From: a virus
Taxonomy: Duplodnaviria; Heunggongvirae; Uroviricota; Caudoviricetes
Virus record (IMG/VR): IMGVR_UViG_2721755712_000001
Length of the DNA stretch: 64,000 bases
Reading direction: 5' to 3' (one strand)
Under the pieces are notes generated by a model that was given only the letters and a program-made list of their open reading frames with translations, had not been told where the DNA came from and ran no database searches. Both the position numbers and the translations under genes were made by a program. Positions 1,193 to 39,737 of this stretch are shown here, one piece after another; the first letter of the stretch is position 1; each line of letters starts with the position of its first letter.

Positions 1193-4100
1193 TTACTTAT
1201 TTATTGTCTCCGCGATATCAGCCAGAATGGCCTCCAGTCGCTCTCCTTCTTCCGGTCGGAAGTACAGGATATTCGGGTTAAATCCGTAGAAGACGGTTGC
1301 ATCAAGCTCTGGGAAGTACTCCTTACGACCAATCAGATCTGATGGTTTACTCTTATTGTTAAATAGTGCGGTTGAACGACTACCACACGTCAAAATGTAG
1401 GTTGGTCGTACAAGATTAATTTCTTCCCGCATAAAGTCTGTGAACTGGCCTATCTCGTCTTTGGTATAGTCTTTCTCTTTGTCCTTAACCTTCTTACAAA
1501 CACCCGTGACATAAAGATCGCCCATGCGCAGATCTCCAACTGTCAGTAGTTTTGCCTTAAAGTCGTCGTATCCGTTCTCCATGAAGTAGCCGGTACGAGC
1601 GTCATTGCCGTTCGCATTGTCCAGAATGATCATGATTTTGGGTTTAATACCAATAGTCGGGCGTATCAACTCCTCACCCAAGCCCATTTCAGCCGCCATA
1701 CGTGTCATGAGTACGTTGATTTCGGCAGAACGCTTAGGATTCATTTCGAACGGACGTGATGCTTTAACAGCGTCAATGATGAGATTGCCCATCAGCTCAG
1801 CCTGGTCGCGCAGTCGTTCAGGATCAGTTGCTGGCAGACTGCCTGGCTCAATTGACGCAAAAGCCCCTACTTTATGAAGCGACTCGCGTACACGACTGTT
1901 ACATGCACGCTTCTCGACCGCTTCATCGAATTGTGCCACTGACTCGAATTTGCCACCAACTTTCTCACGCGCACGCATAATTGCCTGACAACCATTTTCA
2001 GAACAGCCTTTCACAGCAGAGAATGGCGCATACAGTGCCTGACTGCCGTCTTCGAGTGTGCGGATCTCAATTCGGTTAGATGACACATTAACGTCTGGTG
2101 GCAATACGCGAATGCCATAGGTCAGCGCATCCTTCACCAGCCCCTGATGCTTATCCTCGCCCAGAATGGTGAGCGCAGCTGCGAAGAACTCAGCAGGGTA
2201 GTGCGTCTTTAGCCACATAGACTGATAACTGATTAAAGAATAAGCAACGGAGTGTGATTTATTGAACTGATAGGCTCCGTTTTTCTCAAATGCGGTCCAG
2301 ATCTCCTTCGCTTTCATCTCTGATAGCCCTGGATGTGACGCTGTAACGCGTACTGCGTTTATAGGTAGTTTTGCGCCGTGCTCAAGTGCCTCTTCGACAG
2401 TTTTCAGAGTTCCGTCTTCGCATTTAAAATGTTCCGCACGGTGAATGCGCTGTGTAGTGCCATCTTCCAGCTCAACGTCTATCCAGCCAGCTTGAGCCTG
2501 AACGATGAACTTCTCGCCCATGCTCTTCATTTTTTCCATGTTCTTCTTACCGATTGCGGAACGCACAGCGTCAGCTTCAGCCATTGTGAAGCCGGCAAGC
2601 AATCGAGTCGCGTTCATCGTCTGTTCCTGATAGAGAATCACGCCATTTGTTTCCGCGGTAAGTTCATCAAGAACGGGGTGTAATGATTCCGGCGTCATAA
2701 AGCCTTTGGCGACAGAAACATAGTCATCCAACATGCCTGATTGAATTGGCCCCGGCCGGAAGAGCGCAGTTGTAGCGACGACCGTTTTAAAGCTCATTGG
2801 CTCAATTCCACCACCTAAATCTTTAAGCAGCTTGCGCATTGGGCCTGATTCAAGCTGGAAAACACCTTGAGTGTACCCAGCAGCAAAACCATCCAGCACC
2901 TTGCGATCTTCAAGAGAAATGGCATCAAGATTGATATCTTCACCTGTGTTCTCTTTTATGTAGCGTTTTGCACTATCGAGCAAATCGAGAGTTGCCAGGC
3001 CAAGCACGTCCAGCTTAATTAGGCCCATAGCCTCGCAGTAACGCTTGTCAAATGCGATACAACGCGCGTCACCACGGCGCTCAACCGGTGTACGTTCTGT
3101 CAGAGGAACACCTGCTACGATCATCCCTGCCGCATGTCTACCAAAGCCACGCATAAGGCTTTGTAACTTGCAGGCTGCATTGAATGCATCAGGATATTTT
3201 GTTGCGTATTTGTCGAGACTTGCCAGTTGTTCGCGCAGCTCTTCCAATGGAAGGCTATCATCCTCGACGTTCTTCAGTTCTTTTGATACCGCCATATCTG
3301 CGGACTCCACACCATAAATACGAGCGGTATCACGTAGTGCAGAGGCTGCGCCCAGGTAGGTGAAGTTCGGAATACCCGCAACGTAATCTTCGCCGTAGCG
3401 TTCATTCAGATACTCGATCACCTCATGGCGACGTGCCTGGCTGAAGTCCAAGTCCGCATCCGGCAAGTCGAGACGCTCAGGGTTGATGAAACGCTCAAAC
3501 AGAAGACCGTGACGGATTGGGTCGACGTTGGTTATGCCTATGCACCACGCCACCAGAGAACCGGCAGAGGAACCACGACCAGGCCCAACGGGAATGCCAG
3601 TTTCACGACTATGATTCATCAGATCGCGTACCATCAGGAAGTAACCACAAAATCCCAGGCGAGTCAGCGTGTCCATTTCGTACTTTAGCCGCTCAACATA
3701 AACCCTGTTCTCAGAAGCAGGTGGTGTGTAGCCAAACTCTTTTGTGGTAAGACGTTTACGCAGCCCTGCAACAGCCAGTTTCATAAGCGTTGCAGGCTCG
3801 TCGTCTGCCATCTTTGGCAGTGCTGGCGGCAATTCATGCCAGCGCCATGTGCAGGCATCGATAATGGTATCCTGCGTTGTTGAGGCCATTGCAGCTGTTA
3901 CCGGCACATCCATGCGAACGGAGAAGGCTTTAAGCGCCTCAAGGAGATGGCGGCGACCATTGACGGCGTTATCTCGCTGGTGGGGGATACGCAGACGATG
4001 CGGCTGGTCGATTTTGATGTTGTTCGTAACCATGTGCGCAATGTCTTTAATGTCTGCATCGTCGATCGATTCGTAATAAGCGGGATAGAACGCCACTGGC

Positions 4101-27870: not shown

Positions 27871-28192
27871 TTTTTACGCCATACGCGGCTAACCCCAAAA
27901 GCAGTGCAGTAATAATGAACGACGTTATTTTAGAAACAATGCCGCCAAAGAACCCACTGGAGATGGAATCTAACCGGTTAAGGAGTTTGTCCAGATTGGA
28001 GTGTTGAATACTATGTTGCGCCGGGGTCATATCACCAAAGTAGGTTTTCAGCTGATCATTGACCTCCTGGCCAATTTCTTCACGTAGCTCTTTACCTAAT
28101 TTACCAACAACCTCCCGAGCAACGATCGCGGCAATACGCTCAACTTGCTCTGTTGTAACGCCCGCCATCTCGTTCGACATGTTTTCCTCCAT
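27857..28192 (-). CDS. putative holin-like membrane protein
   Basis: 111 aa with a single C-terminal TM helix ITSFIITALLLGLAAYGV; overlaps the start of the endolysin candidate. Confidence 0.35.
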   Translation of the reverse strand: MEENMSNEMAGVTTEQVERIAAIVAREVVGKLGKELREEIGQEVNDQLKTYFGDMTPAQHSIQHSNLDKLLNRLDSISSGFFGGIVSKITSFIITALLLGLAAYGVKNGLQ

Positions 28193-28382
28193 GAAAAGTC
28201 AAATCGGGATGGCGGATTTATATCACATTTCACCCTTTTGTTGTAGGTGTGTACTTACCTATCTATGTATATACCGTTTAACGGCTGTTCAAATTCGTAT
28301 CTAGTAACTCACTAATATATCCCTATGATTGCGGCTGTGAGATCGCATTTTAAACCTCACAGCCATATAAATAATGTCTAAA

Positions 28383-31300
28383 TCAGTTACTTGTTGCCCC
28401 AACAGTACCGGCAAATTTCAGCCATTGACCTGACGGACTTCTATTACTGCGGTAGTGATAAACGAGGATTGCGTTTGTCACTCCACCGTAATCAGCTTTA
28501 TGTGACGTTGTTAAACGAATTGTATAATCACCGTTAGGTAGATTAAAAACTTCGATTATAGATTCTGCTAATTCTACAGCACCAAATCCCGTTATATTGT
28601 TGATACTGCCAGCATTGAATCCCATAGCATCGCCAAAGCCAATCCAATATCTTTTGCTAAACGCCCCATTTGATTTAAGGTGGCTAATGAATGTGGACAA
28701 ACTCATGCCCATATCCCCACCTGAAATAGAGGAAGTTCGCACAGTCATGCTTGGAAGAGCACTGCTCTTCACATAGGAACTTAGAAGATTCGTTACCTCT
28801 GTTTTCGTATAAGCATTAAGGTTAGCCGCAGTCAAAGTAATATCGGCAGAGCCATCAAACGCCACACCAGCAATTTTCCTTGCTGTCTGCAATTTTGTGG
28901 CGGTTGCTGCATTGCCAGTTGTATTCTGATTGCCAGTGGCATTCACACCAGGAATGGAGTCCCTTGATGTATATACCTGCGCCCACGCTGACCATGCCGC
29001 ATCTGTGGTATCTCTTCGTGAGCGAATGAAAACTGGCGCATGTGCACCGCTCGTACCACTCCAGCCAATAAGCAACTCGCCCTCACCAGCAGCACTCGCA
29101 CCTTTCATGTGCAATACGTTGCCATACGTGGTCGGGTAGCTAGTGCTGTACGCCTCGTACATTTGAATGCCAGCAGTGCCTTGAGTAGAGCCGCTTAACG
29201 CCGTAACTCGGCCACGAGATACCAATGTATTAATATTGATATCGCCTGAACCATCAAACTTAACACCATTGATGTTTCTCGCTGTTTGCAACTTCGTAGC
29301 AGTAGCCGCGTTGCCCGTTGTATTCTGATTACCTGCCGTATTTACACCAGGCAAATTTATGTTCGCAGATCCATCGAAGGCCACGCCGCCGATAGTTCTT
29401 GCAGTCTGCAATTTCGTTGCTGTAGCAGCATTTCCTGAAAGACTTGAAATAAATGGATGTGAACAGTAATAACCTCGTCCATTTTTAAAGTCCAAAATTA
29501 TCTGTGCATTCGTACTTTCTGATAAAGGATCAGTTGCCCCCCACTTATAAGTGGTTTGACCAACTGCATAATCAGCCGTTGGAACAATTACGTTCAAGCC
29601 CTCCTCAGCAAATATCTTGATAGGGAATGCTCTGGCTTCAACGTAAAATACACTACACAAATCGTCATCTTTCACACTTGAAATAATCGAGTGTATAGCT
29701 CGCTCAGCAGTAGAATATATTGAGAAAAAACCAGCCGCATATGAACCGCGATCAGACCAACCGCCAGGCATAACAAACCCATTAAATTCACAATTATTCA
29801 TGGCGTATCCGCCAACTGAGGAACCAGTAGTTATCACAACTCGTGAGGCTAATTCATCGGTACTGCCTCTAGATCGGCGAAAGACTATAGGATACCACTT
29901 ACCGCTTACTGCATTTGCAGGCGCTGAAAAAGTGTATTTTCTCATCCCTTTTTTATTGTCTATTTCGCTTTTGCTGTATACGTCAAGGTTCGCAGGAGTC
30001 AGCGTTATGTCCGCAGAACCATCAAACTTAACACCGTTGATTGTACGCGCTGTCTGTAGTTTTGTAGCGGTTGCAGCATTGCCGGTAGTGCTCTGATTAC
30101 CAGCCGTATTAACACCTGGCAAATTAATATTCGCAGTACCATCAAAGCTCACGCCGCCGATAGTTCTTGCCGTCTGAAGTTTTGTAGCAGTTGCAGCATT
30201 ACCAGTGGTGTTCTGATTACCCGTAGTATTTACACCTGGAAGGTTGATATTTGCAGAACCGTCGAAACCAACTCCACCGATAGATCTTGCCGTCTGCAAT
30301 TTCGTTGCTGTACTTGCATTACCATTTAATGTTCCGGTGATACCACCAGTAACAGACAACGGACCTGAAACTGTTCCTCCGGTTGTTGGCAGTGCTCCAA
30401 TATCTAACGGCGTCGGTTTCTGATGTGTGCTATACATCGTATAAACAACACCATCGGTAACGCTGGAAGGCTTACTCGCTGAATATGTTGGCGATGTATA
30501 AATAGAAACTGACGCATTTGCAGTACAATCCCAATGGATATTTACACTCGTCGCATAATTGCCAATTTCAACGTAAATATCATATGTATCGCCGGATGTG
30601 TTGATCCAGGCGAAATTCGCTAATCCGACAGCTGTACGCTTCCACAAAGCACCTGTAATTCCTTTGGGGTTTCCATTGCCTGCTCGTAGAACCAGTTCTG
30701 AAATGCCTGCCTGATGTGGGGAACCGACGTTGTAACCAGCGCCACCAATCAATGCGATGTAAACGATGGAACTCGCTTGTGGCATGGTAACCGTAGCCAG
30801 TTTGAACCACCCTGCCCCGCCAGAGAAAGACATCGTTACTGAATTTAAAGTACCAATATCTTTCGGCGTTAATGTGATATCCGCAGTCAGTGCTTTTCCG
30901 TTAACTTTTCGGTTAGATGGCACCCTGCTATTCGCATTGTCATTGGCTGCTTTAACTGCTTTTGGCGTTGCGGCCAGCGATTCACTGGTGCTGTCGACAG
31001 CACTGCTAAGTTTCACAACACCTTTAGTTGTAAGGCTTGCGTCTTCCATCGCAACTGCACCGGCAATCTCTTCAGCACGATCAGCAGCAGCTTCCGCACG
31101 GGTCGCAGCGGATTCAGCAGCAGTTTTGCTCTGAGATGCTGCCGTCGCACTGCCTGCCGCCTCTGTTGCTTTCGTGGATGCCGTCGTGGCGCTGCCCTTC
31201 GCTGCTGACGCCTGTCTGGTCGCCTCATCTTTTGAAGCAGACGCCGATGATGCCGATGACGCCGCCGAACTGGCGGACGATGCGGCTGCCGTTTTTGAGG

Positions 31301-32411
31301 ATTCTGCACGGTTTTCCGACGCTTTCGCGTTCGTTTCGGATGTCTTCGCTGCGGAAGCAGACCTCGCTGCTGCGCTGGCCTGTTCAGTGGCTTGGCCAGC
31401 CTTCGTTGTGGCTGTTGAAGCAGACGATGCGGCACTTTCTGCCGATTTTCCGGCGGCGGTGGCACTGGCTGAGGCCTGCCCGGCACTTGTTGACGCGGCA
31501 CTGGCAGACGACGCAGCCGCTGTTTTTGAGCCTGCCGCAGCCGAGGCGCTCTGTCCCGCTGCCGTTTCAGAAGACCTGGCGTTCGTCTCGGACGTTTTTG
31601 CCGCCTTCGCGGAATTTCCTGCCGCCGTTGCCGAGGAAGCGGCATTACTGGCGCTCGAGGCTGCGCTCGTTTCTGATGATTTCGCTGCCTCTTTTGAGGC
31701 CGCCGCATCCCGGGCTGAGGTGGCAGCTTCTGACGCCTTCGTGGTCGCGGTGGATGCAGAAGTGGCTGCAGATTTTTGTGACGCTGCAGCATTCGTTTCA
31801 GATTTTTTCGCAGCAGTTGCACTCGCACTTGCGGCACTTTGTGAGGATGCCGCAGCGGATGCACTTTGAGACGCTTGAGAGGCTTTTTCTCCAGCGGCAT
31901 TGGCGCTTTTTGCTGCTGCGGCAGCACTGGCCGCCGCCTCACGAGCTTTGTCGCCAGCAGCATCAATCGCGTCAGTGTTATTTTTATACCACTCAACGTT
32001 TTCGTTGTGCTCGTTGACGATCTGCATTAGCGGCTTAACGGTCACTTCTGTACCGTCTTCACGCTCGATTGTCACCTCATCCAGCGCAGTCAACCAACTG
32101 CGTATGGACTTGGAATCAGCCGACATACGCGACATTAGCGCAGTAAAGCGCGCGCTAAACTGTGTTAAGTCGCCTTCATAGGTCGTAATGATTCGGCACG
32201 GAACCTCAGACTGAGTTTCGCCGGTATAAGGTTCTGAGAGAACAATATTCGTATCGCTTATTACGCGCTTGATCTCGTACAGCTTATTGTCGGGGCCAAT
32301 GACGATCATCCCCGGCAACACACCATTAGCTGTTACGTTCCAGGCTGTCCCTGCCCCAACCAGAGTATTGCTACCCTGTGTAAATGTGATAGTACCTTCC
32401 CTGTACCACAT
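28383..32411 (-). CDS. tail fibre protein with Ala/Ser-rich region and repeated fibre motifs
   Basis: 1342 aa; about 300-aa Ala/Ser/Thr low-complexity tract; at least five copies of ...NTTGNAATATKLQTAR.IGGV.FDGSANINLPGVN... Confidence 0.8.
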   Translation of the reverse strand: MWYREGTITFTQGSNTLVGAGTAWNVTANGVLPGMIVIGPDNKLYEIKRVISDTNIVLSEPYTGETQSEVPCRIITTYEGDLTQFSARFTALMSRMSADSKSIRSWLTALDEVTIEREDGTEVTVKPLMQIVNEHNENVEWYKNNTDAIDAAGDKAREAAASAAAAAKSANAAGEKASQASQSASAAASSQSAASASATAAKKSETNAAASQKSAATSASTATTKASEAATSARDAAASKEAAKSSETSAASSASNAASSATAAGNSAKAAKTSETNARSSETAAGQSASAAAGSKTAAASSASAASTSAGQASASATAAGKSAESAASSASTATTKAGQATEQASAAARSASAAKTSETNAKASENRAESSKTAAASSASSAASSASSASASKDEATRQASAAKGSATTASTKATEAAGSATAASQSKTAAESAATRAEAAADRAEEIAGAVAMEDASLTTKGVVKLSSAVDSTSESLAATPKAVKAANDNANSRVPSNRKVNGKALTADITLTPKDIGTLNSVTMSFSGGAGWFKLATVTMPQASSIVYIALIGGAGYNVGSPHQAGISELVLRAGNGNPKGITGALWKRTAVGLANFAWINTSGDTYDIYVEIGNYATSVNIHWDCTANASVSIYTSPTYSASKPSSVTDGVVYTMYSTHQKPTPLDIGALPTTGGTVSGPLSVTGGITGTLNGNASTATKLQTARSIGGVGFDGSANINLPGVNTTGNQNTTGNAATATKLQTARTIGGVSFDGTANINLPGVNTAGNQSTTGNAATATKLQTARTINGVKFDGSADITLTPANLDVYSKSEIDNKKGMRKYTFSAPANAVSGKWYPIVFRRSRGSTDELASRVVITTGSSVGGYAMNNCEFNGFVMPGGWSDRGSYAAGFFSIYSTAERAIHSIISSVKDDDLCSVFYVEARAFPIKIFAEEGLNVIVPTADYAVGQTTYKWGATDPLSESTNAQIILDFKNGRGYYCSHPFISSLSGNAATATKLQTARTIGGVAFDGSANINLPGVNTAGNQNTTGNAATATKLQTARNINGVKFDGSGDININTLVSRGRVTALSGSTQGTAGIQMYEAYSTSYPTTYGNVLHMKGASAAGEGELLIGWSGTSGAHAPVFIRSRRDTTDAAWSAWAQVYTSRDSIPGVNATGNQNTTGNAATATKLQTARKIAGVAFDGSADITLTAANLNAYTKTEVTNLLSSYVKSSALPSMTVRTSSISGGDMGMSLSTFISHLKSNGAFSKRYWIGFGDAMGFNAGSINNITGFGAVELAESIIEVFNLPNGDYTIRLTTSHKADYGGVTNAILVYHYRSNRSPSGQWLKFAGTVGATSN

Positions 32412-32504
32412 GTTGAATATGCTCCTTGATTTGGCGGGCTATCCTTGCCCGCCATTAAGTAATTACTTACCTATTCTTACCGATATAAAATTTTTTTTCC
32501 ACCA

Positions 32505-35500
32505 TCACAGACGGCCAATTCTTACTCGTAAGACGTTGTTATCGTCATAAACGTCAATCCGCTGACCATTTATAACCAATCGCCCATTGCCGCCGCTATT
32601 ACCGTTGATCTCAAGCGTTCCATTTTTGCCGAACCGCCATCCAGATCTACCGCTAACAAAATTGGTAGATTGCAGATCGCCTACTTTTGCATTGGTGATT
32701 GTGCCATCCTTGATATACGCTCCATTCATATAGGCGATACTGTTTTCGATAACAAATGGCGTTGTGATCTTCCCGTTAACAGAGTTGACCAAACCAAACC
32801 TGTCCGCCTGAACCAAAAACTGAGATAGCCCAGTGGTGTCAATACCAAGCGCAATACCGGCAACATACTTCTGCCCTCCGCTCGTTGAAGTCTCCATTTT
32901 CAACGTCCACGCGGTTGATACTTTTTTGTTGGTATCAGCAATAGCTGTTGCCTGCTGTTGAATTGTCGCGGTATTTCCATCCACCTCTGCTTTCAGAGTA
33001 TCGATTCGCCCACTCAGAGCATTATCTGCCTGCGTTCTCGCTGTCGTTTCAGTTGTTACCGCCGCGGAAATGTTGGCTGCCGTTTGAGACTCTAAGTTTG
33101 TGATTTGAGTCGCCAGTGCCGCATCTTGCTCTGTACGCGTTTTCGTTTCGGTTGCTACAGCCGCTTTAATATCCTCTTTGTATTGAGAGGTCAGCTTGGT
33201 GATCTGAGACGACAACGCCGAGTCAGCATCAGTTCGAGCCTGCGTTTCAACTGCAACGGCCGCACTAATATCTTTCGCAGTCTGTGCTTTTAAACTTGAA
33301 ACCTCTTTTGTTAAAGCGGTATCACCATCTGCACGAGCCGTTGTTTCTCTGGCAAGAGATGCCTCAAGATCATTAGCTTTTGCTGTAAGAGACGTAATCT
33401 GAGTGGACAATGCACTATCGGCATCAGTCCTTGCTTTTGTCTCTACAGCAACCGCTGCGGCAATATCAGTTCCGGTTTGTGCTCGCAGGCTGTTAATTTC
33501 TCGTGAGAGCGCCTGGTCAGCACTTGCTCTGGCCTCCTGCTCCTGAGTGATGGCAGCGGATATATCACCGTCAACCTTTGACTGAAGCTGGTTTATTTGT
33601 TTGGCTAACGCAGAGTCCCCGCTTGCTCGGGCCTCCTGCTCACTACGTATTGCAGCAGAAATATCATCATCAACCTTTGCCTGAAGTTGGGTGATCTGGC
33701 TTGCCAGAGCCGAATCTTCCGTTGCTCGGGCTTCTTGCTCTTCCTTAATAGCTGCGACGATATCGTTGCTTACTTTCGACTCAAGCTGAGTGATCTGTGT
33801 CGTCAGAGCTTCATCGGCAGATGTACGAGCCTCCTGCTCTGTACTAATCGCCGCGCTGATATCTCCTTCAAACTTAGATTGCAGCTGAGTGACACGCTTT
33901 GCCAACGCTTCATCGCCATCGGCACGAGCGGTGGACTCTTCCAGAATACTGGCCTTAATGTCTTCGCCAATTTCTACGCGAATTTCCTCAACCTTCGTGG
34001 CCATTGCAGACATATCATCAGCAAAGGTTTTCTGTGTTGTTGCGATCTTCGCGTTATTGACCATCTGCTTGTGCTGGTCTTCATCTTGACGAAGAGCCAG
34101 GTCAATATTTGTTTTGGCCAACGCCTCAATGTTCGTAGTCAGTTCTGCACTGGCACGATCGACCTCTGCAACCGTCTTTTTCATTTCTTCAACGGCAGCG
34201 GAGCTTTCCTCTACCGTTGACTGCAACACTTCCAGTTGTTTAGCGTTTGCAGCATCGCCTTCAACACGAGCCTCGCTTTCCTTAGCAATAAGAGCCGCCG
34301 CTTCATCTCTTGCAGCCTTTATTGCCTCGACTGTATTAGCGAGAGCTTTATCGTGTTCAGATACGGTGTTTTCGATTTCAACAATTGCAGCATCAGTAGC
34401 ATCAATTTTTTCAAACGCTTCATTGACCTTGTCGATCGTTGCCGAAACCTCACCTTTAAGCTCGGTTTGTGCGTTCTCCAAAGCATCGCTACGCTCGTTG
34501 AATTTTATTTCAAAATCCGCGAGGTTATCGCTGAACTGCTTATCTAATTCAGCTATATCTTCCTTAACGTCGTTTACCGACCCCTCCAAAGATTCGACGC
34601 TCTGGTTGATATGCTCATTTAACTCGTCAACTGCTTCTTGAGAGGCTTTGCTGTTGATGTCCTCAAGCAGAGCCTGACCAAGCTCGGAAGATGTAATTTT
34701 GCCAGTCAGGAACGACAGTACATCGCGAGTTGTCGCCTCTGTACCCAAGTTTGAGTTCGGAGGACTTAACATACCTCGCTTGTTCGATGCTCGAACCCAG
34801 TAATACCACGTTTCGCTATCCCCAAGACCAGCATGTGTAAAGGTGGTGCTTGCAGACTCTGCGATCAGTTTCGCCGTATCCAGATTGTTGGTCTGGGATG
34901 CGTAAACATTAATGTGATCAAGGTCCACCGAATCTGGATTAACCCAATTCAGTATCACATTACGATAGTCTCCAACGGCCGTTAATGACGTTGGTGCATC
35001 CGGCGGTGTCATTGTGCCCAGCACCTGATAAACGGTACTGATAATTTCTGTTTTTTTACCGTTGAATGAAACCGCATACAGTTGGAAGTCGTAGCGTCCA
35101 TTCTCCGCGACATTAACGATTTCGTATTGCTCTTCGGTTACACGCGCCGATTGCCAGTTCGATACATTGTTTTCATCAGAACGTCGCCAACTGATCCAAT
35201 ACTCTGGAGATTTCCCTTCCCATGTTGCAGTCAGTTTTACTGACAGGTTGCCAGGGCTTGAGAGATAAGTCCCTTCGGTGATTTGCAAATTAGACGGCTT
35301 GGAGTAAGTCGGGTCCAATACCGTCGTATTTTGCGGGATAAGCGTTGCACCATTGTCGATCGCCTCATATTTAGACGGATTGTTCTCAACAGCGGTGATG
35401 TCAAAGCTACCCGGCGTTTCCCCCTGCGCGATGTTAACGATGCGAACGCGCATAGGTTCGAGGTCTGGTTCTGTAATAGTCCAGACGCCGTTCAAAACAG

Positions 35501-37238
35501 GCGTTTCAGCCGAAGACAGGGATTTTGAAAACGTAACTTTTGTTATATTTTCGCCAGTTTCAAGAACATCGCGTTCAACGATTTTGCCTTCCTGATTCAG
35601 TATTCGAATAAAGCAGCCGCCTTTGGCTAACGACACCGGCGCATCGAGTGTGACGCTGTTTTTGGTAAACGCCACAATTCGACCTGAGTTACGTTTGCCT
35701 GCGCGATATTTGTTCTGAATCAGAACGGTTTCACCAGGCATCAGAAATGACGCGTCTAAGCCGGCAGTAAATGTAATTACATCCGACTCCATTCTGGCGG
35801 TATATAAAAGCCACAAACCAACTCGGTGAGCCTGCCCTCGGCTTGTACAGCCAAATGCTACGACTTCTGTCTTACGCTCACCATAACGGCGCATTGCGTC
35901 CTGATCTTCAACGTACTCGATGTTTTGCTTATAACCGTCCTCCTTGTTGTTGTAGGTTACGAGCGCAACGGATGGGCGATCTTTACGCGCAGAACCTTTA
36001 TAGGTAAACAATCCATCTTTGACGTTAGAGTTGGTAAACATCATTACCGGATCTGATGGGCTATCCTGCATGATGTTAACCATCCCACCAGCCCAAAACA
36101 CCATGCCGCGGAATGCTCCAGCAATATCCTGAATTAGTCGGTATGCGTCCTGTCGACTGGTGATCTGCGTATTGATTGCAAAGCGTTTCTCTTTGCCACC
36201 AAAGCCATCATCGACCTCTTCGTCACAATATCGACCAATCTGGTACAACTGGCCAAGGTCAATCATAGATTCCGACACATACTGACCAAGGCCATATCGA
36301 GCATTGGTCAGCAAATCAAAGAGAATCCACGCGGGGTTCGAAGAAGACAACAGCTTAAAAGTGCCATCCCATACCCCAGCGTAAGTGTTACTGGACTCGT
36401 TATAGTTTGAAGGTACTCGAATTTTTAGGCCACGCACCAGATAAGAGCGAGATGGCATGGTGCTGCCGAATTGCTCAGAGTTTACCTTCAATCCAACTAA
36501 AACAGAGTTTGGATAGTTCATCGGTGTATCGACAATTTCCCCGATTGAATCCACCCATGTATCGTTATAGAGATACTGGCTACTGTTATCATCGGTAATA
36601 CGGACTACACGAACCTTGTATGCGCGTCCAGGCTTAGGCAGCTTCAGCTCGTAGCTACGGTAATAAACGCCGGTCTTCTTTGCTGTTAGCTTAATGCCAA
36701 CGCTTTTTTCACCTTCCGCGACCACATCTACAAATGTTGAGTCGCCATTTGCTATCTGGAACTTGTACTCAACAGTCGTACCGTTCGTGTCACCAGTTTT
36801 TTTATCTATGCTTCGCAAAGAAGGAAACTTCATGATGACACGAACCCGATCAGCTTCATCGTTATCGATTGAAACCGTTACATAATGTGTTTTTTTTAAC
36901 TGGATATTGACGGATTTAGGCGTTTCAACGAAATCAAAGCCAGACATTGGAGTTTGGTCTTGCGAACCGTCGCGAAAATCCCATGTGATTCCGCTGAAGT
37001 TGGAGGAACCGTCTTCATTTACAATCGGCAGATCGTCGATAAAAATAGATCTTGCGCCATTTACTAAGCCGCCAATTACCCCTTCCCCAAGAAGATCGAG
37101 GATAGCGGCCATTGCACGAGAATTTACGGTATCGTCGGCTTCAACCGGTGTACGGCTGGAGCTTTTGCTGCTTTTTTTACCACCCGCACCGGCAATAAAC
37201 AGCGGTAGCTTTTTCTTCTTGAACTGTTCCATGTTCAA
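32505..37238 (-). CDS. J: central tail fibre / host specificity protein, lambda J-like, with expanded coiled-coil repeat region
   Basis: 1577 aa; N-terminal and central regions share long motifs with lambda gpJ (VLVGLKVNSEQFGS, AFGCTSRGQAHRVGLWL); about 15 tandem copies of a roughly 33-aa heptad-like repeat before a J-like C-terminal domain. Confidence 0.9.
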   Translation of the reverse strand: MNMEQFKKKKLPLFIAGAGGKKSSKSSSRTPVEADDTVNSRAMAAILDLLGEGVIGGLVNGARSIFIDDLPIVNEDGSSNFSGITWDFRDGSQDQTPMSGFDFVETPKSVNIQLKKTHYVTVSIDNDEADRVRVIMKFPSLRSIDKKTGDTNGTTVEYKFQIANGDSTFVDVVAEGEKSVGIKLTAKKTGVYYRSYELKLPKPGRAYKVRVVRITDDNSSQYLYNDTWVDSIGEIVDTPMNYPNSVLVGLKVNSEQFGSTMPSRSYLVRGLKIRVPSNYNESSNTYAGVWDGTFKLLSSSNPAWILFDLLTNARYGLGQYVSESMIDLGQLYQIGRYCDEEVDDGFGGKEKRFAINTQITSRQDAYRLIQDIAGAFRGMVFWAGGMVNIMQDSPSDPVMMFTNSNVKDGLFTYKGSARKDRPSVALVTYNNKEDGYKQNIEYVEDQDAMRRYGERKTEVVAFGCTSRGQAHRVGLWLLYTARMESDVITFTAGLDASFLMPGETVLIQNKYRAGKRNSGRIVAFTKNSVTLDAPVSLAKGGCFIRILNQEGKIVERDVLETGENITKVTFSKSLSSAETPVLNGVWTITEPDLEPMRVRIVNIAQGETPGSFDITAVENNPSKYEAIDNGATLIPQNTTVLDPTYSKPSNLQITEGTYLSSPGNLSVKLTATWEGKSPEYWISWRRSDENNVSNWQSARVTEEQYEIVNVAENGRYDFQLYAVSFNGKKTEIISTVYQVLGTMTPPDAPTSLTAVGDYRNVILNWVNPDSVDLDHINVYASQTNNLDTAKLIAESASTTFTHAGLGDSETWYYWVRASNKRGMLSPPNSNLGTEATTRDVLSFLTGKITSSELGQALLEDINSKASQEAVDELNEHINQSVESLEGSVNDVKEDIAELDKQFSDNLADFEIKFNERSDALENAQTELKGEVSATIDKVNEAFEKIDATDAAIVEIENTVSEHDKALANTVEAIKAARDEAAALIAKESEARVEGDAANAKQLEVLQSTVEESSAAVEEMKKTVAEVDRASAELTTNIEALAKTNIDLALRQDEDQHKQMVNNAKIATTQKTFADDMSAMATKVEEIRVEIGEDIKASILEESTARADGDEALAKRVTQLQSKFEGDISAAISTEQEARTSADEALTTQITQLESKVSNDIVAAIKEEQEARATEDSALASQITQLQAKVDDDISAAIRSEQEARASGDSALAKQINQLQSKVDGDISAAITQEQEARASADQALSREINSLRAQTGTDIAAAVAVETKARTDADSALSTQITSLTAKANDLEASLARETTARADGDTALTKEVSSLKAQTAKDISAAVAVETQARTDADSALSSQITKLTSQYKEDIKAAVATETKTRTEQDAALATQITNLESQTAANISAAVTTETTARTQADNALSGRIDTLKAEVDGNTATIQQQATAIADTNKKVSTAWTLKMETSTSGGQKYVAGIALGIDTTGLSQFLVQADRFGLVNSVNGKITTPFVIENSIAYMNGAYIKDGTITNAKVGDLQSTNFVSGRSGWRFGKNGTLEINGNSGGNGRLVINGQRIDVYDDNNVLRVRIGRL

Positions 37239-37249
37239 AAAATCCTTGT

Positions 37250-37843
37250 TTACATTAGCTGGTCAATCGTGATTGAAGAACTCACAACCTGTGAGCCAAC
37301 CAGAATTTCCTCGCCATAGATAAGTTGTACTGGGTTGCCCTGGTTTTCTGTATTTTGAGGGCCGTCGAAATAATAAGAGTTCGAGTTATCTGCCTGTCTC
37401 ACACTTTCGTTAGTGGCTTGCGGCGATATGATTTGTGATATGCCGCCCATCATCAGTGACAAACCGAGAGGTGCTAAAGCAGGCATCACTACCGCCGATA
37501 CAACCAACAAAGCGGCCCCTACTACCGTCTGAAACCACCCAAAAGCAGATCCACCGCTTCCTCGCGGAACAGGTGTAATGCGGATTTTGGCAATGTTGTC
37601 AGACTGCCCCATCATCTGATATTCACTTTCGTCAACAGACCACTTGTGGCCCTGTTTATTGGTGATCTGGATGTGGTAACGGTCATAGGTTTTGATATTG
37701 CGCTTCATCCATGCTTTAAACCCAGGCTTGTTGGCCTCAATTAAATCCAGAGCCTGTTTTGTATTGCGCACCTTTAGATGCCAGTGGCGGCCAAAATGTT
37801 TGGCCATAGGGCCGCCAAGCTGCACATGAACTAACTCAGACAC
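37250..37843 (-). CDS. I: tail assembly protein, lambda I-like
   Basis: 197 aa; position between K-like and J-like genes; C-terminal hydrophobic Gly-rich segment. Confidence 0.65.
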   Translation of the reverse strand: MSELVHVQLGGPMAKHFGRHWHLKVRNTKQALDLIEANKPGFKAWMKRNIKTYDRYHIQITNKQGHKWSVDESEYQMMGQSDNIAKIRITPVPRGSGGSAFGWFQTVVGAALLVVSAVVMPALAPLGLSLMMGGISQIISPQATNESVRQADNSNSYYFDGPQNTENQGNPVQLIYGEEILVGSQVVSSSITIDQLM

Positions 37844-38655
37844 GTCTCATCTCCCTTGAGCAAGTCTCTGTGACGCAAGTGATGCGTCGTATGTTTCTGA
37901 TACATTCCGCCGTAATAAGCACGACAACTAAGGCGGTCGATCTGGTGATGAAGAATCATTCCATCGCCGATATAAACCGCGCAGTGGTCAGGCATTTTCC
38001 CGTATTGGATAAAGAAGATGTCCCCACGTTGAGGCTCTGTTCCGGGCGCAAGACGCACCAATCCCTCGTTACGGTAGTTCTGATCGAGAATGTCGTTATC
38101 GCCGGTGTACCACGATGGAATATGCAGGTGTGCGTTCGGGTTTAGTTCGACGTTAAACTCACGCTTCAAATAGTCCCGACACAACATCCAGCAATCGAAT
38201 ACGCCAAATACATACGGTCTGCCCAGGTATGGCATTTCGAAACCATCAGGTGTGATCACATTCATCTCGCTAAAATGGAAAGGGGCATCTCCCTCAACAT
38301 TCTTGCGAATAGCCAGAATCATCCACGGAACTTCCGTCGCTTCGCAGCCTGCACGATCGGCATCAGATGCTTCTGCTGATTCATCAGTATGTGAATGCCA
38401 GATTGCGATAACATCACCCGCATCCTCTGCCGCCATAATGTCGTCAACGTGCATTACAAAAGTGTTCTGCGGGTTCTCCGAAACATTCCGCGCTTCCATA
38501 AAGCGATATTTGTCGCCATTAGTTCTAACCAGAAAGCCACACGCTTCATTAGGGTAGCGATTTATGGCGCAGAGATAGATTTGCTGCATAACGTCAGAGC
38601 CAAGCTCAGGGATTGCTTTATTACCCATACCGCGTAGCTCCAATAAATCCGCCAA
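37831..38655 (-). CDS. K: tail tip assembly protein, lambda K-like (JAMM/MPN plus NlpC/P60)
   Basis: 274 aa; JAMM-like motif AIWHSHTDESAEASDAD and a C-terminal Cys/His cell-wall hydrolase-like half. Confidence 0.8.
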   Translation of the reverse strand: MADLLELRGMGNKAIPELGSDVMQQIYLCAINRYPNEACGFLVRTNGDKYRFMEARNVSENPQNTFVMHVDDIMAAEDAGDVIAIWHSHTDESAEASDADRAGCEATEVPWMILAIRKNVEGDAPFHFSEMNVITPDGFEMPYLGRPYVFGVFDCWMLCRDYLKREFNVELNPNAHLHIPSWYTGDNDILDQNYRNEGLVRLAPGTEPQRGDIFFIQYGKMPDHCAVYIGDGMILHHQIDRLSCRAYYGGMYQKHTTHHLRHRDLLKGDETCLS

Positions 38656-39352
38656 AATGGATCACACCGTCGGCAAAATAATTCCGACGCGCATTACAGG
38701 CGTCATAACGTTTTGTGCAGTAATCCGCACCAGACATAGACGTCTGCTGGTTATTTTTGTCGAAATATGGACCGGTATAGCCGCATTCTGGCCCTCGGTA
38801 TTTCCACGGGCAGGTGTTTTTAATGATCTGACGATACGGCAGTTGCACCCCCATCAAATCGAACACACTAGACAATTCAAACTCGACAACCTGATGAGTT
38901 TCGAGAGTTTTCTGTTCGATAAACCACATTTCATCCGGGAAATGTTGGTTTGGATCTGCTGTTGGGTTGCCGTCTTTAAAATTAACGGCATCGAGGAAGC
39001 GAGCCAGCGTCATCTTGCGAATAATGCGGCAGCCAACAAGATCGTCGTTTGCCTGAACTTCCGCAGAGACAGTTCCGGCAAAGTTCGATACCTGAATTTT
39101 TGGACGTGGCAACGTTCCCTGGCCAGTTTTGTCAAAGCCTGATGCTTTGATTGGCCACGGCTCGTATGTCACTCCTTGCCAGACGACCGGTTGCATCAGT
39201 TCGTTTGTTCCGGCGTGGAAGAATAGCTTCCCCCCTGAAGTTGTGTTCGACATATCCAGTACGAACAACTCAATGAGTGCAGAGGGAGATAAGCTCTGAA
39301 TATCAGCTTTAATTCCCATTGTTTCATCCTTGAAATAAGTAGGCGCTAACAT
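38621..39352 (-). CDS. L: minor tail protein, lambda L-like
   Basis: 243 aa; motifs ARFLDAVNF and CGYTGP plus C-terminal Cys cluster matching lambda gpL. Confidence 0.85.
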   Translation of the reverse strand: MLAPTYFKDETMGIKADIQSLSPSALIELFVLDMSNTTSGGKLFFHAGTNELMQPVVWQGVTYEPWPIKASGFDKTGQGTLPRPKIQVSNFAGTVSAEVQANDDLVGCRIIRKMTLARFLDAVNFKDGNPTADPNQHFPDEMWFIEQKTLETHQVVEFELSSVFDLMGVQLPYRQIIKNTCPWKYRGPECGYTGPYFDKNNQQTSMSGADYCTKRYDACNARRNYFADGVIHFGGFIGATRYG

Positions 39353-39401
39353 CCTGTCAGCGCCACAATGATAGTAAATTAGTACTTACTTATCCAGATG
39401 C

Positions 39402-39737
39402 TTAAGCCTCAAATACTTGTCTGAATGTAGCAGTTAAGACACAGTACCCCTGATATCGCTTGACCGTATGACTGTCACATACAACTACAATCCGTTTTCC
39501 TCTTTGATTAACCCAATAGAACGACTCAACGCCTGCTCGCTCAGTCAGGAAGTCATCGATTGCATTAATTTCGTTGTATGATCTGGTAAAGGTTAACGAC
39601 CATTCTTCTTTAATACGATTAAGACCTTGAGCCTGTCGCTGCTCGTAGTCATCACCAAAATTAAGTATCGTTACATTCGGTTTTACGCTTTTTTCAGATT
39701 CGTAATCTGGATACCAATTAAACGTTTGTCTTTCCAT
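39402..39737 (-). CDS. M: minor tail protein, lambda M-like
   Basis: 111 aa; FGDGYEQR motif and size match lambda gpM. Confidence 0.75.
   Translation of the reverse strand: MERQTFNWYPDYESEKSVKPNVTILNFGDDYEQRQAQGLNRIKEEWSLTFTRSYNEINAIDDFLTERAGVESFYWVNQRGKRIVVVCDSHTVKRYQGYCVLTATFRQVFEA

What the first reader, a model, noticed from the sequence alone, without database searches (positions are those of the whole stretch)
33000..34300. Expanded tandem coiled-coil repeat insert in the J-like central tail fibre gene
The J homologue matches lambda gpJ at the N-terminus, centre and C-terminus, but between them carries about 15 tandem copies of a roughly 33-aa repeat (for example EQEARASGDSALAKQINQLQSKVDGDISAAI), which is about 99-bp DNA repeats. 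Lambda J has only a short segment here. Such repeats could form a long stalk that changes tip reach and are prone to length variation by recombination.
Basis: seen in the sequence. Interest (0 to 1): 0.5.

Follow-up and report, generated by a model that had tools for sequence, protein, structure and literature searches.

The report
Repeat-built helical shaft in phage tail-tip protein
The tail-tip protein J of this SSU5-like E. coli phage-plasmid carries ten (not fifteen) tandem 33-residue helical repeats that lengthen its central fibre. This is a real but common feature of a repeat family recently shown in pyocins to act as a coiled-coil-to-beta-prism spring.

Summary
The repeat is real, but there are 10 contiguous 33-aa units (window 32952..33938, minus strand), not about 15. 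There is also a half unit and one isolated degenerate copy. The array sits in a proline-free helical segment of about 568 aa (32952..34655) that lambda J lacks. The window is an SSU5-like phage-plasmid, 99.7% identical to phage Cyrano/pLF82 over the J gene. The exact protein occurs on 149 public contigs, so this is not an assembly artefact. The DNA units are old: 40-70% identical, with shared exact words of 12 nt or less. Copy number still varies in whole units among relatives: 10, 9 (three independent single-unit (33-aa) deletions), 7, 5, and 20 in a Klebsiella J. The C-terminus matches lambda's beta-prism fibre domain but not lambda's receptor-binding domain. The units are homologous to the alpha-helical shaft of F-type pyocin central fibres. 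In those fibres a 163-residue coiled coil refolds into a beta-prism on cell contact (2026 preprint). Each unit here carries that paper's SxSxxMxxLxS motif once forward and once reversed, with the E/R salt-bridge pair. [quoted passage not shown] I rate it a new member of a known kind, of modest interest.

The parts
32505..37232 (-). J-like central tail fibre / tip attachment gene (1575 aa from the ATG; the ORF listing ORF extends to a TTG at 37238)
   Evidence: ORF. The gene is 99.7% identical to Cyrano CYRAN_20 'tail host specificity protein J', in the gene order M-L-K-I-J-side fibre. Pfam finds FNIII-A_GpJ, Phage-tail_3, fn3 and Phage_Tail_Tip. PDB sequence matches include lambda gpJ and the F2-pyocin fibre.
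34656..37232 (-). Conserved hub domains plus FNIII domains (aa 1-861), colinear with lambda J 2-835
   Evidence: blastp gives 31.5% identity over 869 columns, E 8e-118. Pfam domains.
33939..34655 (-). Non-repetitive, mostly heptad-type helical segment (aa 862-1100). It contains one isolated degenerate unit (34194..34280) and a half unit (33945..34010). It also holds a sequence island conserved between E. coli and Salmonella relatives (about aa 1015-1100).
   Evidence: Hydrophobic periodicity 3.56 and no proline. Unit-profile hits. In-register 7-aa and 25-aa indels, and the conserved island, are visible in the alignment of relatives.
32952..33938 (-). Array of 10 tandem 33-aa (99-nt) units, aa 1101-1429; unit 6 has 32 aa. 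Unit boundaries on the window: 33840-33938, 33741-33839, 33642-33740, 33543-33641, 33444-33542, 33348-33443, 33249-33347, 33150-33248, 33051-33149, 32952-33050.
   Evidence: Invariant positions are E1, R5, D9, A11, L12 and L19. Periodicity is 3.65, i.e. 33 residues per 9 helical turns. AF2 predicts a continuous helix. The forward SxSxxMxxLxS motif is present in 10/10 units and the reversed motif in 9/10.
32562..32966 (-). Phage_Tail_Tip (formerly DUF1983) beta-prism fibre domain, aa 1425-1559, followed by a short C-terminal tail up to the stop codon at 32505-32507
   Evidence: Pfam E 1.4e-41. Aligns to lambda J 839-971. Foldseek matches lambda gpJ 8xcj and SU10 7z4b. Nearly identical in E. coli and Salmonella relatives.
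28383..32411 (-). Downstream side tail fibre gene (1342 aa); a possible partner of the J shaft
   Evidence: ORF. Cyrano annotates it as a tail fibre, P1 S homologue. Its proximal Ala/Ser-rich coil is 72% identical to lambda Stf over 148 aa, while its N-terminal 200 aa are unrelated to lambda StfN.

Best explanation
The array encodes most of the alpha-helical shaft of the trimeric central tail fibre of an SSU5-like siphovirus (a phage-plasmid). The shaft lies between the FNIII domains that close the tail tip and the distal beta-prism fibre domain.

Shown here:
- There are ten diverged 33-residue units (33 residues = 9 helical turns) plus about 240 residues of heptad-type helix.
- The units are homologous to the shaft of lambda J and F-type pyocin central fibres.
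- Unit number changes in evolution by exact 99-nt steps.

Inferred:
- In the virion the segment forms a long three-stranded coiled coil. At 0.148 nm per residue that is about 49 nm for the array and up to about 84 nm for the whole helical segment. This holds the tip domain far from the tail.
- The coil is metastable. Invariant E1, R5 and D9 lie on one helix face and would put charged layers in the core.
- On cell-surface contact at least the distal units refold into antiparallel beta strands that extend the tip's beta-prism. This has been seen on a small scale in lambda (residues 841-861) and on a large scale in the F7 pyocin (163 residues). The refolding would loosen the FNIII plug and release the tape-measure protein and DNA.
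- Each 33-aa unit would supply one beta-hairpin: forward motif at positions 11-21, reversed motif from position 29 to position 6 of the next unit, with Gly/Asp-rich turns between them.
- Adding or removing units changes reach, and if the switch occurs, also the stroke and stored energy, without disturbing register.

The confidence of 0.6 is for the combined statement. Taken separately, I put the extended coiled-coil shaft at about 0.9 and the refolding of at least the distal units at about 0.45.
For: Identity and context.

Repeat anatomy.

Helix prediction: with an alignment, pLDDT is 70-87 over aa 1079-1405; the single-sequence run agrees.

Homology of the units to solved central-fibre shafts:
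- Coil plus tip against the F2-pyocin fibre 25vf residues 882-1193, E 1e-24, and against 9l9p, which has the same 33-aa repeats.
- The unit profile alone hits the F2 fibre at 1039-1071 (E 8e-5), 9l9p and 9ze4.

Fold-switch precedent and motif: He et al. 2026 (PMC12874032). Lambda's shaft residues 841-861 become beta strands on LamB binding (PMC11101478). The two F2-pyocin structure papers describe the same helical shaft: PMC13455828, and 10.64898/2026.02.24.707460, which calls it metastable.

Motif test: 16 forward matches and 10 reversed matches, against 2.8 +/- 1.6 in shuffles, at fixed phases 11 and 29. E1 sits at an 'M' position with R5 at i+4.

Whole-unit, register-preserving indels among relatives.

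Same architecture with 20 units in a Klebsiella J.
Against: - No trimer prediction or experiment was possible. Both AF2 monomer runs gave only helix, so the beta state is untested here.
- Because the units repeat, the motif enrichment is really one observation per consensus unit. The chance that a random unit of this composition carries both orientations is roughly 0.06, so the motif is suggestive, not decisive.
- I could not reconcile my two-strands-per-33-aa mapping with the 'five to six strands' shown for the switching regions in the preprint's figure legend.
- He et al. note that 20-60 N-terminal residues of such coils do not switch. An array twice as long as the pyocin's may switch only in part.
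- One F2-pyocin paper (10.64898/2026.02.24.707460) describes a heptad register for that shaft, whereas the array here averages 3.65-3.67 residues per turn.
- The fold-switch paper is a preprint.
- No micrograph of SSU5 or Cyrano virions that I could read describes a long central fibre.
Confidence: 0.6

Rival explanations
1. Passive spacer only. The repeats form a stable coiled-coil stalk whose sole role is to set the distance between the tail tip and the distal fibre domain, for example to reach through O-antigen or capsule. There is no refolding.
For: The helix is predicted in both AF2 runs. Unit-wise length variation among hosts fits length tuning: E. coli 10/9, Yersinia 7, Salmonella 5. He et al. 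state that the N-terminal part of such coils does not switch.
Against: The units share sequence, the motif and the E/R pair with a shaft that does refold in the F7 pyocin and, on a small scale, in lambda. Invariant charged residues E1, R5 and D9 spaced four apart on one face are odd for a purely structural, maximally stable coil.
Confidence: 0.3
2. Docking scaffold. The long shaft mainly serves as the platform on which the side tail fibres (gene 28383..32411) are mounted, as PyoF13 trimers mount on the F-pyocin shaft.
For: In F-pyocins the side fibres bind a kink in the shaft and are needed for particle integrity. The side fibre here lacks a lambda-type StfN collar domain. An island in the heptad part (about aa 1015-1100) is conserved between E. 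coli and Salmonella relatives while its flanks diverge.
Against: A docking site needs tens of residues, not ten repeats. The conserved island lies outside the array. No interaction was tested. This role is compatible with, rather than an alternative to, the main explanation.
Confidence: 0.1
3. Contingency-type hypervariable locus. The tandem DNA repeats are there to generate frequent in-frame length variants by recombination or slippage within populations.
For: Three independent single-unit (33-aa) deletions occur in close relatives, at different unit boundaries. Two of them are in alleles 97.7% and 99.5% identical to the window's J at the protein level; the third is seen between PhiR41_1 and its close relative CMS-2020a SCU-175. 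The two read at the DNA level are exactly 99 nt, with 3-12 nt microhomology.
Against: The units are only 40-70% identical at the DNA level, with exact words of 12 nt or less. Most close relatives keep the same 4734-nt gene: most rows sampled from 164 plasmid records that hold most of the gene, and the exact protein on 149 contigs. Variation is therefore rare and slow, unlike true contingency loci.
Confidence: 0.05
4. Assembly artefact: the copy number is inflated or collapsed by mis-assembly of repeats.
For: None found. Many database copies of J are truncated at contig ends in the coil region.
Against: Diverged units are unambiguous for assemblers. The gene length is identical in Cyrano/pLF82 and many independently assembled complete plasmids, and the exact protein is on 149 contigs.
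Confidence: 0.01

Closest known systems
F-type pyocin central fibre protein (PyoF10 / PA0641; F7 and F2 pyocins; PDB 25vf and related entries)
   Same: Same domain order: hub, FNIII, trimeric alpha-helical shaft, Phage_Tail_Tip beta-prism, and no built-in lambda-type receptor-binding domain. There is sequence homology through the distal shaft and tip. The shaft carries the SxSxxMxxLxS pattern and E/R i+4 pairs.
   Different: The shaft there is about 163-175 residues and is not described as a regular repeat. Here it is about 568 residues, of which 330 form a regular 10 x 33 array. No small PyoF11/F12-like genes follow J here; the next gene is the large side fibre. The fold switch is demonstrated there and only inferred here.
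Lambda gpJ (tip attachment protein J; PDB 8iyk, 8xcj)
   Same: Homologous hub and FNIII region (31.5% identity) and homologous beta-prism fibre domain. Same gene neighbourhood, M-L-K-I-J. Lambda's short helical shaft (809-861) also partly converts to beta strands on receptor binding.
   Different: Lambda's shaft is about 53 residues with no 33-aa units. Lambda has a C-terminal LamB-binding domain (972-1132) that is missing here.
J proteins of other SSU5-group phage-plasmids (SSU5, Yersinia pestis pMT1-type plasmids, PhiR41_1, CMS-2020a, Klebsiella elements)
   Same: Same gene, same flanking genes and the same repeat family. The tip domain is nearly identical in the E. coli and Salmonella members.
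   Different: Unit number differs (5, 7, 9, 10, 20). One Klebsiella lineage replaces the array with coils interrupted by globular, carbohydrate-binding-like modules (2201 aa).
Central fibre of the phage in PDB 9l9p ('putative tail fiber protein', 1172 aa)
   Same: Contains near-perfect 33-aa repeats of the same family directly upstream of the same tip domain.
   Different: It has only about 3 units. I did not identify the phage.

Membership tests
Lambda gpJ-like tip attachment / central tail fibre protein | Hub and FNIII domain set (FNIII-A_GpJ, Phage-tail_3, fn3) colinear with gpJ | tested here: met
   Pfam E 1.5e-29, 7e-34 and 2e-05. blastp to lambda J 2-835, E 8e-118. PDB hits 8iyk and 9e7m.
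Lambda gpJ-like tip attachment / central tail fibre protein | Position in the tail-tip gene cluster after the M, L, K and I homologues | tested here: met
   Annotation of the 99.7% identical Cyrano region. ORFs upstream at 37250..39737.
Lambda gpJ-like tip attachment / central tail fibre protein | Beta-prism central straight fibre domain (Phage_Tail_Tip) | tested here: met
   Pfam E 1.4e-41. Foldseek to 8xcj, E 2.4e-07.
Lambda gpJ-like tip attachment / central tail fibre protein | C-terminal Ig-like receptor-binding domain as in lambda (residues about 972-1132) | tested here: not met
   No alignment beyond lambda 971. The protein ends 28 aa after the aligned block. This feature defines lambda's own subtype, not the wider family; the F-pyocin fibres also lack it.
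Fold-switching coiled-coil / beta-prism central fibre shaft (He et al. 2026) | Long helical, coiled-coil-prone segment between FNIII-2 and the beta-prism tip | tested here: met
   No proline in 568 aa and periodicity 3.56-3.65. AF2 gives a continuous helix. Trimeric state is inferred from homologues only.
Fold-switching coiled-coil / beta-prism central fibre shaft (He et al. 2026) | Sequence homology to the pyocin shaft region | tested here: met
   The unit profile hits the F2 fibre at 1039-1071, E 8e-5. Coil plus tip gives E 1e-24 over 882-1193. Homology is clear for the distal units and weaker further up.
Fold-switching coiled-coil / beta-prism central fibre shaft (He et al. 2026) | SxSxxMxxLxS pattern in alternating orientation, with Asp/Glu at M paired with Arg at +/-4 | tested here: met
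   The forward motif is at phase 11 in 10/10 units and the reversed motif at phase 29 in 9/10. E1 and R5 are invariant. Significance at the level of one consensus unit is only about 0.06.
Fold-switching coiled-coil / beta-prism central fibre shaft (He et al. 2026) | Alternative beta-prism conformation predicted or observed for the same residues | tested here: inconclusive
   Only monomer AF2 was available; both runs gave helix. A trimer prediction or cryo-EM is needed.
Contingency / hypervariable tandem-repeat locus | Near-identical DNA units that allow frequent slippage or recombination | tested here: not met
   Units are 40-70% identical with a longest shared word of 12 nt. TRF sees only 2.2 copies.

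The most novel reading that the evidence does not exclude
The whole 10-unit array (330 residues per chain, possibly with part of the upstream helix) is a modular alpha-to-beta spring. Each 33-aa unit becomes one beta-hairpin rung of a triangular prism. A roughly 49-nm coiled coil would then collapse to a prism of about 10 nm on receptor contact, pulling the tail tip to the membrane. That would be about twice the largest fold switch yet documented (163 residues). Natural variants with 5, 7, 9, 10 and 20 units would form a ready-made series in which reach, stroke and stored energy scale with unit number.
Probability: 0.25. Interest if true: 0.65.

Novelty: new member of a known kind. Interest (0 to 1): 0.3.

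Why it matters
How non-contractile phage tails obtain the energy to open and breach the envelope is an open question. The 2026 pyocin work proposes that a coiled-coil-to-beta-prism switch supplies it. SSU5-group phage-plasmids are common in E. coli, Salmonella, Yersinia pestis and Klebsiella. They offer natural alleles of one protein that differ only by whole 33-residue units (5 to 20). That gives a clean way to ask whether shaft length sets reach, host range or ejection energetics. It also shows that the switching motif can be packaged as a duplicable module. As a sequence feature, however, it is already abundant in databases and fits a known protein family.

Tried and rejected
- TRF and seed-based repeat finding badly under-call the array at the DNA level. 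Protein-level profiles were needed.
- The first repeat finder failed on strand syntax. One script failed on the file layout; listing the files fixed it.
The unbiased survey of viral contigs was therefore replaced by a profile search of 1.84 billion representatives.
- The word-indexed protein search listed only proteins of 1251 aa or less among its best 120 hits, many of them truncated at contig ends. It could not give an unbiased length distribution.
- One Pfam call exceeded the residue limit.
- AF2 monomer predictions, with and without an alignment, cannot test a trimeric beta-prism and gave only helices.
- Pfam finds nothing in aa 862-1424, so the unit is not a curated Pfam repeat.
- Rfam finds nothing in 28000-38000.
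- The antisense ORFs (33687..34220, 34114..34641, 34236..34547 on the + strand) translate to Cys/Ser/Leu/Phe-rich low-complexity sequence and change length between relatives. I rejected them as genes.
- Assembly artefact and contingency-locus readings were rejected on DNA divergence and database recurrence.
- The Cyrano paper says nothing about the tail tip.
Full report
WHAT THE WINDOW IS. The J-like gene (minus strand, 32505..37238 as listed; real ATG probably at 37232) is 99.7% identical over its whole length to 'tail host specificity protein J' of Escherichia phage Cyrano. Cyrano is the SSU5-like phage-plasmid pLF82 of E. coli LF82. The neighbours are the tape measure, M, L, K and I homologues upstream and a 1342-aa side tail fibre downstream. 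Pfam places FNIII-A_GpJ (aa 104-238), Phage-tail_3 (360-523), fn3 (747-826) and Phage_Tail_Tip (1425-1559) on the protein. It finds nothing between 862 and 1424. Residue numbers use the TTG start; residue n begins at window coordinate 37238-3(n-1).

CHECK OF THE OBSERVATION.
- Period. The 33-residue period is unmistakable. Identity at lag 33 is 0.48 over aa 1101-1429, whereas 2000 shuffles never exceed 0.19 at any lag.
- Copy number. Anchoring on the E-x-x-A-R motif and building a unit profile gives ten contiguous units at aa 1101-1429, window 32952..33938. There is also a half unit just upstream and one isolated degenerate copy at aa 987-1015. The count is therefore 10 to 11.5, not about 15. 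The figure of 15 probably came from dividing the whole helical region by 33.
- DNA level. The repeats are old. Units are 40-70% identical and share no exact word longer than 12 nt. That is why TRF reports only 2.2 copies and the repeat finder only four.
- Comparison with lambda J. Window aa 20-861 aligns with lambda 2-835, and aa 1420-1549 with lambda 839-971. About 558 residues are inserted where lambda has three.
- C-terminus. The C-terminal match is to lambda's beta-prism 'central straight fibre', not to its LamB-binding domain. That domain has no counterpart; the protein stops 28 residues after the aligned block.

ANATOMY OF THE HELICAL SEGMENT.
- Residues 862-1429 contain no proline.
- The first 239 residues have hydrophobic periodicity 3.56, close to heptads. 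The array has 3.65, which equals 33 residues per nine turns, a hendecad-like average.
- Six positions of the unit are invariant: E1, R5, D9, A11, L12 and L19. A4 and A29 are nearly invariant.
- E1, R5 and D9 are spaced four apart. They would lie on one helix face, in line with the hydrophobic positions 12, 16, 19, 23, 27 and 31. This suggests charged layers in the core; that is an inference.
- AlphaFold2 on aa 1077-1577 predicts a single uninterrupted helix from 1079 to 1405 with a 44-sequence alignment, at pLDDT 70-87. Without an alignment it predicts two long helices. In both cases a beta-rich tip domain follows.
- At 0.148 nm per residue the array would span about 49 nm and the whole segment about 84 nm if fully extended (inference).
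- Antisense ORFs over the region are compositional artefacts. No Rfam family matches.

RELATED SEQUENCES AND COPY NUMBER.
- Counts with the same unit profile: Cyrano and two CMS-2020a records have 10 units, PhiR41_1 has 9, SSU5 has 5 and lambda has none. Yersinia pestis proteins have 7.
- The alignment shows that all differences are exact unit multiples. PhiR41_1 lacks 33 aa relative to its close relative CMS-2020a (strain SCU-175). SSU5 lacks 66 + 99 aa. The heptad part differs by 7 and 25 aa, which also preserves register.
- Two further single-unit deletions occur in very close alleles, at different unit boundaries. One is in the plasmid of E. coli AH04 (97.7% aa identity). The other is a Shigella sonnei protein (99.5% identity).
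- The two deletions I could read at the DNA level are exactly 99 nt and are flanked by 3-12 nt of microhomology within imperfect homology of about 20 nt.
- The 10-unit allele dominates. 164 plasmid records carry at least 80% of the gene, and most rows sampled across them show the full 4734-nt span. The exact 1575-aa protein is on 149 contigs, in a 90%-identity cluster of 1980 members.
- The copy number is therefore not an assembly artefact. Length variation is real but slow. It is better explained by occasional short-homology deletion or duplication than by efficient homologous recombination.

HOW UNUSUAL IS IT?
- A profile of the ten units was searched against 1.84 billion cluster representatives. 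It finds 1252 proteins at E <= 1e-3 and 537 at E <= 1e-10, some with more than 20 matched stretches.
- I recounted the 145 newly fetched of the 150 best-scoring proteins. The longest uninterrupted tandem runs are 20 (a 2138-aa Klebsiella pneumoniae 'phage tail protein'), then 11 and 10. The Klebsiella protein has the same Pfam architecture and sits on a 102-kb contig. Most of the others have runs of 3-6.
- The commonest unit spacing in the wider family is 32 residues, not 33.
- Among 1715 phage records with a tblastn match to coil plus tip, only 8 cover at least 80% of it.
- The array here is thus in the upper tail of a large, widespread repeat family. It is neither unique nor the longest.

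WHAT IS KNOWN ABOUT THIS SEGMENT.
- PDB sequence searches link the coil and tip to the F2-pyocin tail fibre (25vf) at residues 882-1193, E 1e-24. They also link it to 9l9p, which has near-perfect 33-aa repeats of the same family, and to 9ze4 and 23gd.
- The unit profile alone hits the F2 fibre at 1039-1071 (E 8e-5). That position lies inside the resolved coiled-coil shaft.
- Three 2026 papers describe that shaft as a trimeric coiled coil carrying the side fibres.
- He et al. (PMC12874032, preprint) show that in the F7 pyocin the 163-residue coil (921-1083) converts into a triangular beta-prism on cell contact. The conversion opens the tip and ejects the tape measure. Small-to-Gln substitutions that destabilise only the prism abolish killing. 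AlphaFold-based sampling predicts the same switch in 21 of 24 siphophage central fibres. Each prism strand carries SxSxxMxxLxS, oriented with the strand, with Asp/Glu at M often paired with Arg four residues away.
- Lambda shows a miniature version. Its shaft residues 841-861 become beta strands on top of the prism when LamB binds (PMC11101478).

TEST OF THAT MOTIF HERE.
- Scanning aa 862-1440 finds the forward pattern at unit position 11 in all ten units (A11-x-A13-x-x-I16-x-x-L19-x-S21).
- The reversed pattern starts at position 29 in nine of ten units (A29-x-I31-x-x-E1'-x-x-A4'-x-A6'). The M residue E1 is paired with invariant R5 at i+4.
- The intervening stretches (22-28 and 7-10) are rich in Gly, Asp and Asn.
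- Counts are 16 forward and 10 reversed, against 2.8 +/- 1.6 in shuffles.
- Because the units are copies of one another, the fair null is per consensus unit. On that basis the chance of finding both orientations is roughly 0.06. The result is suggestive only.
- It leads to the concrete hypothesis that one 33-aa unit equals one beta-hairpin. I could not reconcile this fully with the 'five to six strands' in the preprint's figure legend.

MOST LIKELY FUNCTION. I conclude that the array is the expanded alpha-helical shaft of the central tail fibre.
- Shown: its helical character, its repeat structure, its homology to the lambda and pyocin shafts, and unit-wise evolutionary length change.
- Inferred: trimeric coiled-coil geometry and length, and metastability with refolding of at least the distal units into beta structure on cell contact.
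The switch mechanism is the better-supported extension, at roughly even odds.
- SSU5 is reported to use LPS core through a tail fibre, gp22, as cited in PMC12312913. The protein here has no lambda-type receptor domain. The distal tip of J may therefore act as a trigger sensor rather than as the primary adhesin (inference).
- A docking role for the side fibre on the shaft is possible. This side fibre lacks lambda's collar-type N-terminus, and a conserved island lies in the heptad part. This was not tested.

NOVELTY AND VERDICT.
- The gene is already abundant in public records under generic names: 'phage tail protein', 'DUF1983 domain-containing protein', 'tail host specificity protein J'. Its family and probable mechanism are described in current literature.
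- The papers I read do not describe the regular 33-residue modularity, the presence of both motif orientations in each unit, or the natural series of unit numbers in SSU5-group phage-plasmids.
- I rate it a new member of a known kind, interest about 0.3. The untested, more novel reading is that the whole array is a modular spring about twice the size of the largest documented fold switch.

Noticed in passing
window 28383..32411 (-): The downstream 1342-aa side tail fibre has a long Ala/Ser-rich low-complexity coil that is 72% identical to lambda Stf over 148 aa. Its first 200 aa or so have no match to lambda's StfN collar domain. It also carries about six copies of a roughly 40-aa 'GNAATATKLQTAR..GV.FDGS.NI' repeat (TRF period 120 at 30052..30324). 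Pfam finds no family in it.
   Followed up: partly
window about 33945..34194 (aa about 1015-1100 of J): An island in the non-repeat helix ('AAVEEMKKTVAEV...NIDLALRQDEDQHKQMVNNAKIATTQK...') is almost unchanged between E. coli and Salmonella SSU5 relatives, while the flanking coil diverges. It may be a side-fibre docking or kink site like that of F-pyocin shafts.
   Followed up: no
L006 (Klebsiella phage vB_KpnS_p4727), J homologue starting near 4001: The Klebsiella SSU5-like J is 2201 aa. After the conserved 870-aa hub it has coiled-coil stretches interrupted by several globular modules that look carbohydrate-binding-like, instead of the 33-aa array. A different K. pneumoniae J (P0121, 2138 aa) has 20 tandem units.
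   Followed up: partly
plasmid NZ_CP053233.1, hit H74: The J gene matches in two pieces spanning 6044 bp instead of 4734 bp. An insertion of about 1.3 kb, possibly an IS element, therefore interrupts J in that plasmid.
   Followed up: no
proteins P0070-P0116: Dozens of 98-100% identical J fragments end at aa about 950-1090, i.e. at contig ends inside the helical region. Some are on contigs as long as the whole phage-plasmid. Short-read assemblies seem to break there often, and the reason is unknown (shared sequence with other prophage J genes?).
   Followed up: no
proteins P0121-P0265: Across the wider repeat family the commonest start-to-start spacing of units is 32 residues (537 cases), followed by 36, 33 and 39. 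The 33-residue register seen here is thus a minority variant. Unit 6 of this array is itself 32 residues.
   Followed up: no
window 33687..34641 (+): Three antisense ORFs of 103-177 aa overlap the repeat region. They translate to Cys/Ser/Leu/Phe-rich low-complexity sequence and vary in length among relatives, so they are compositional artefacts rather than genes.
   Followed up: yes
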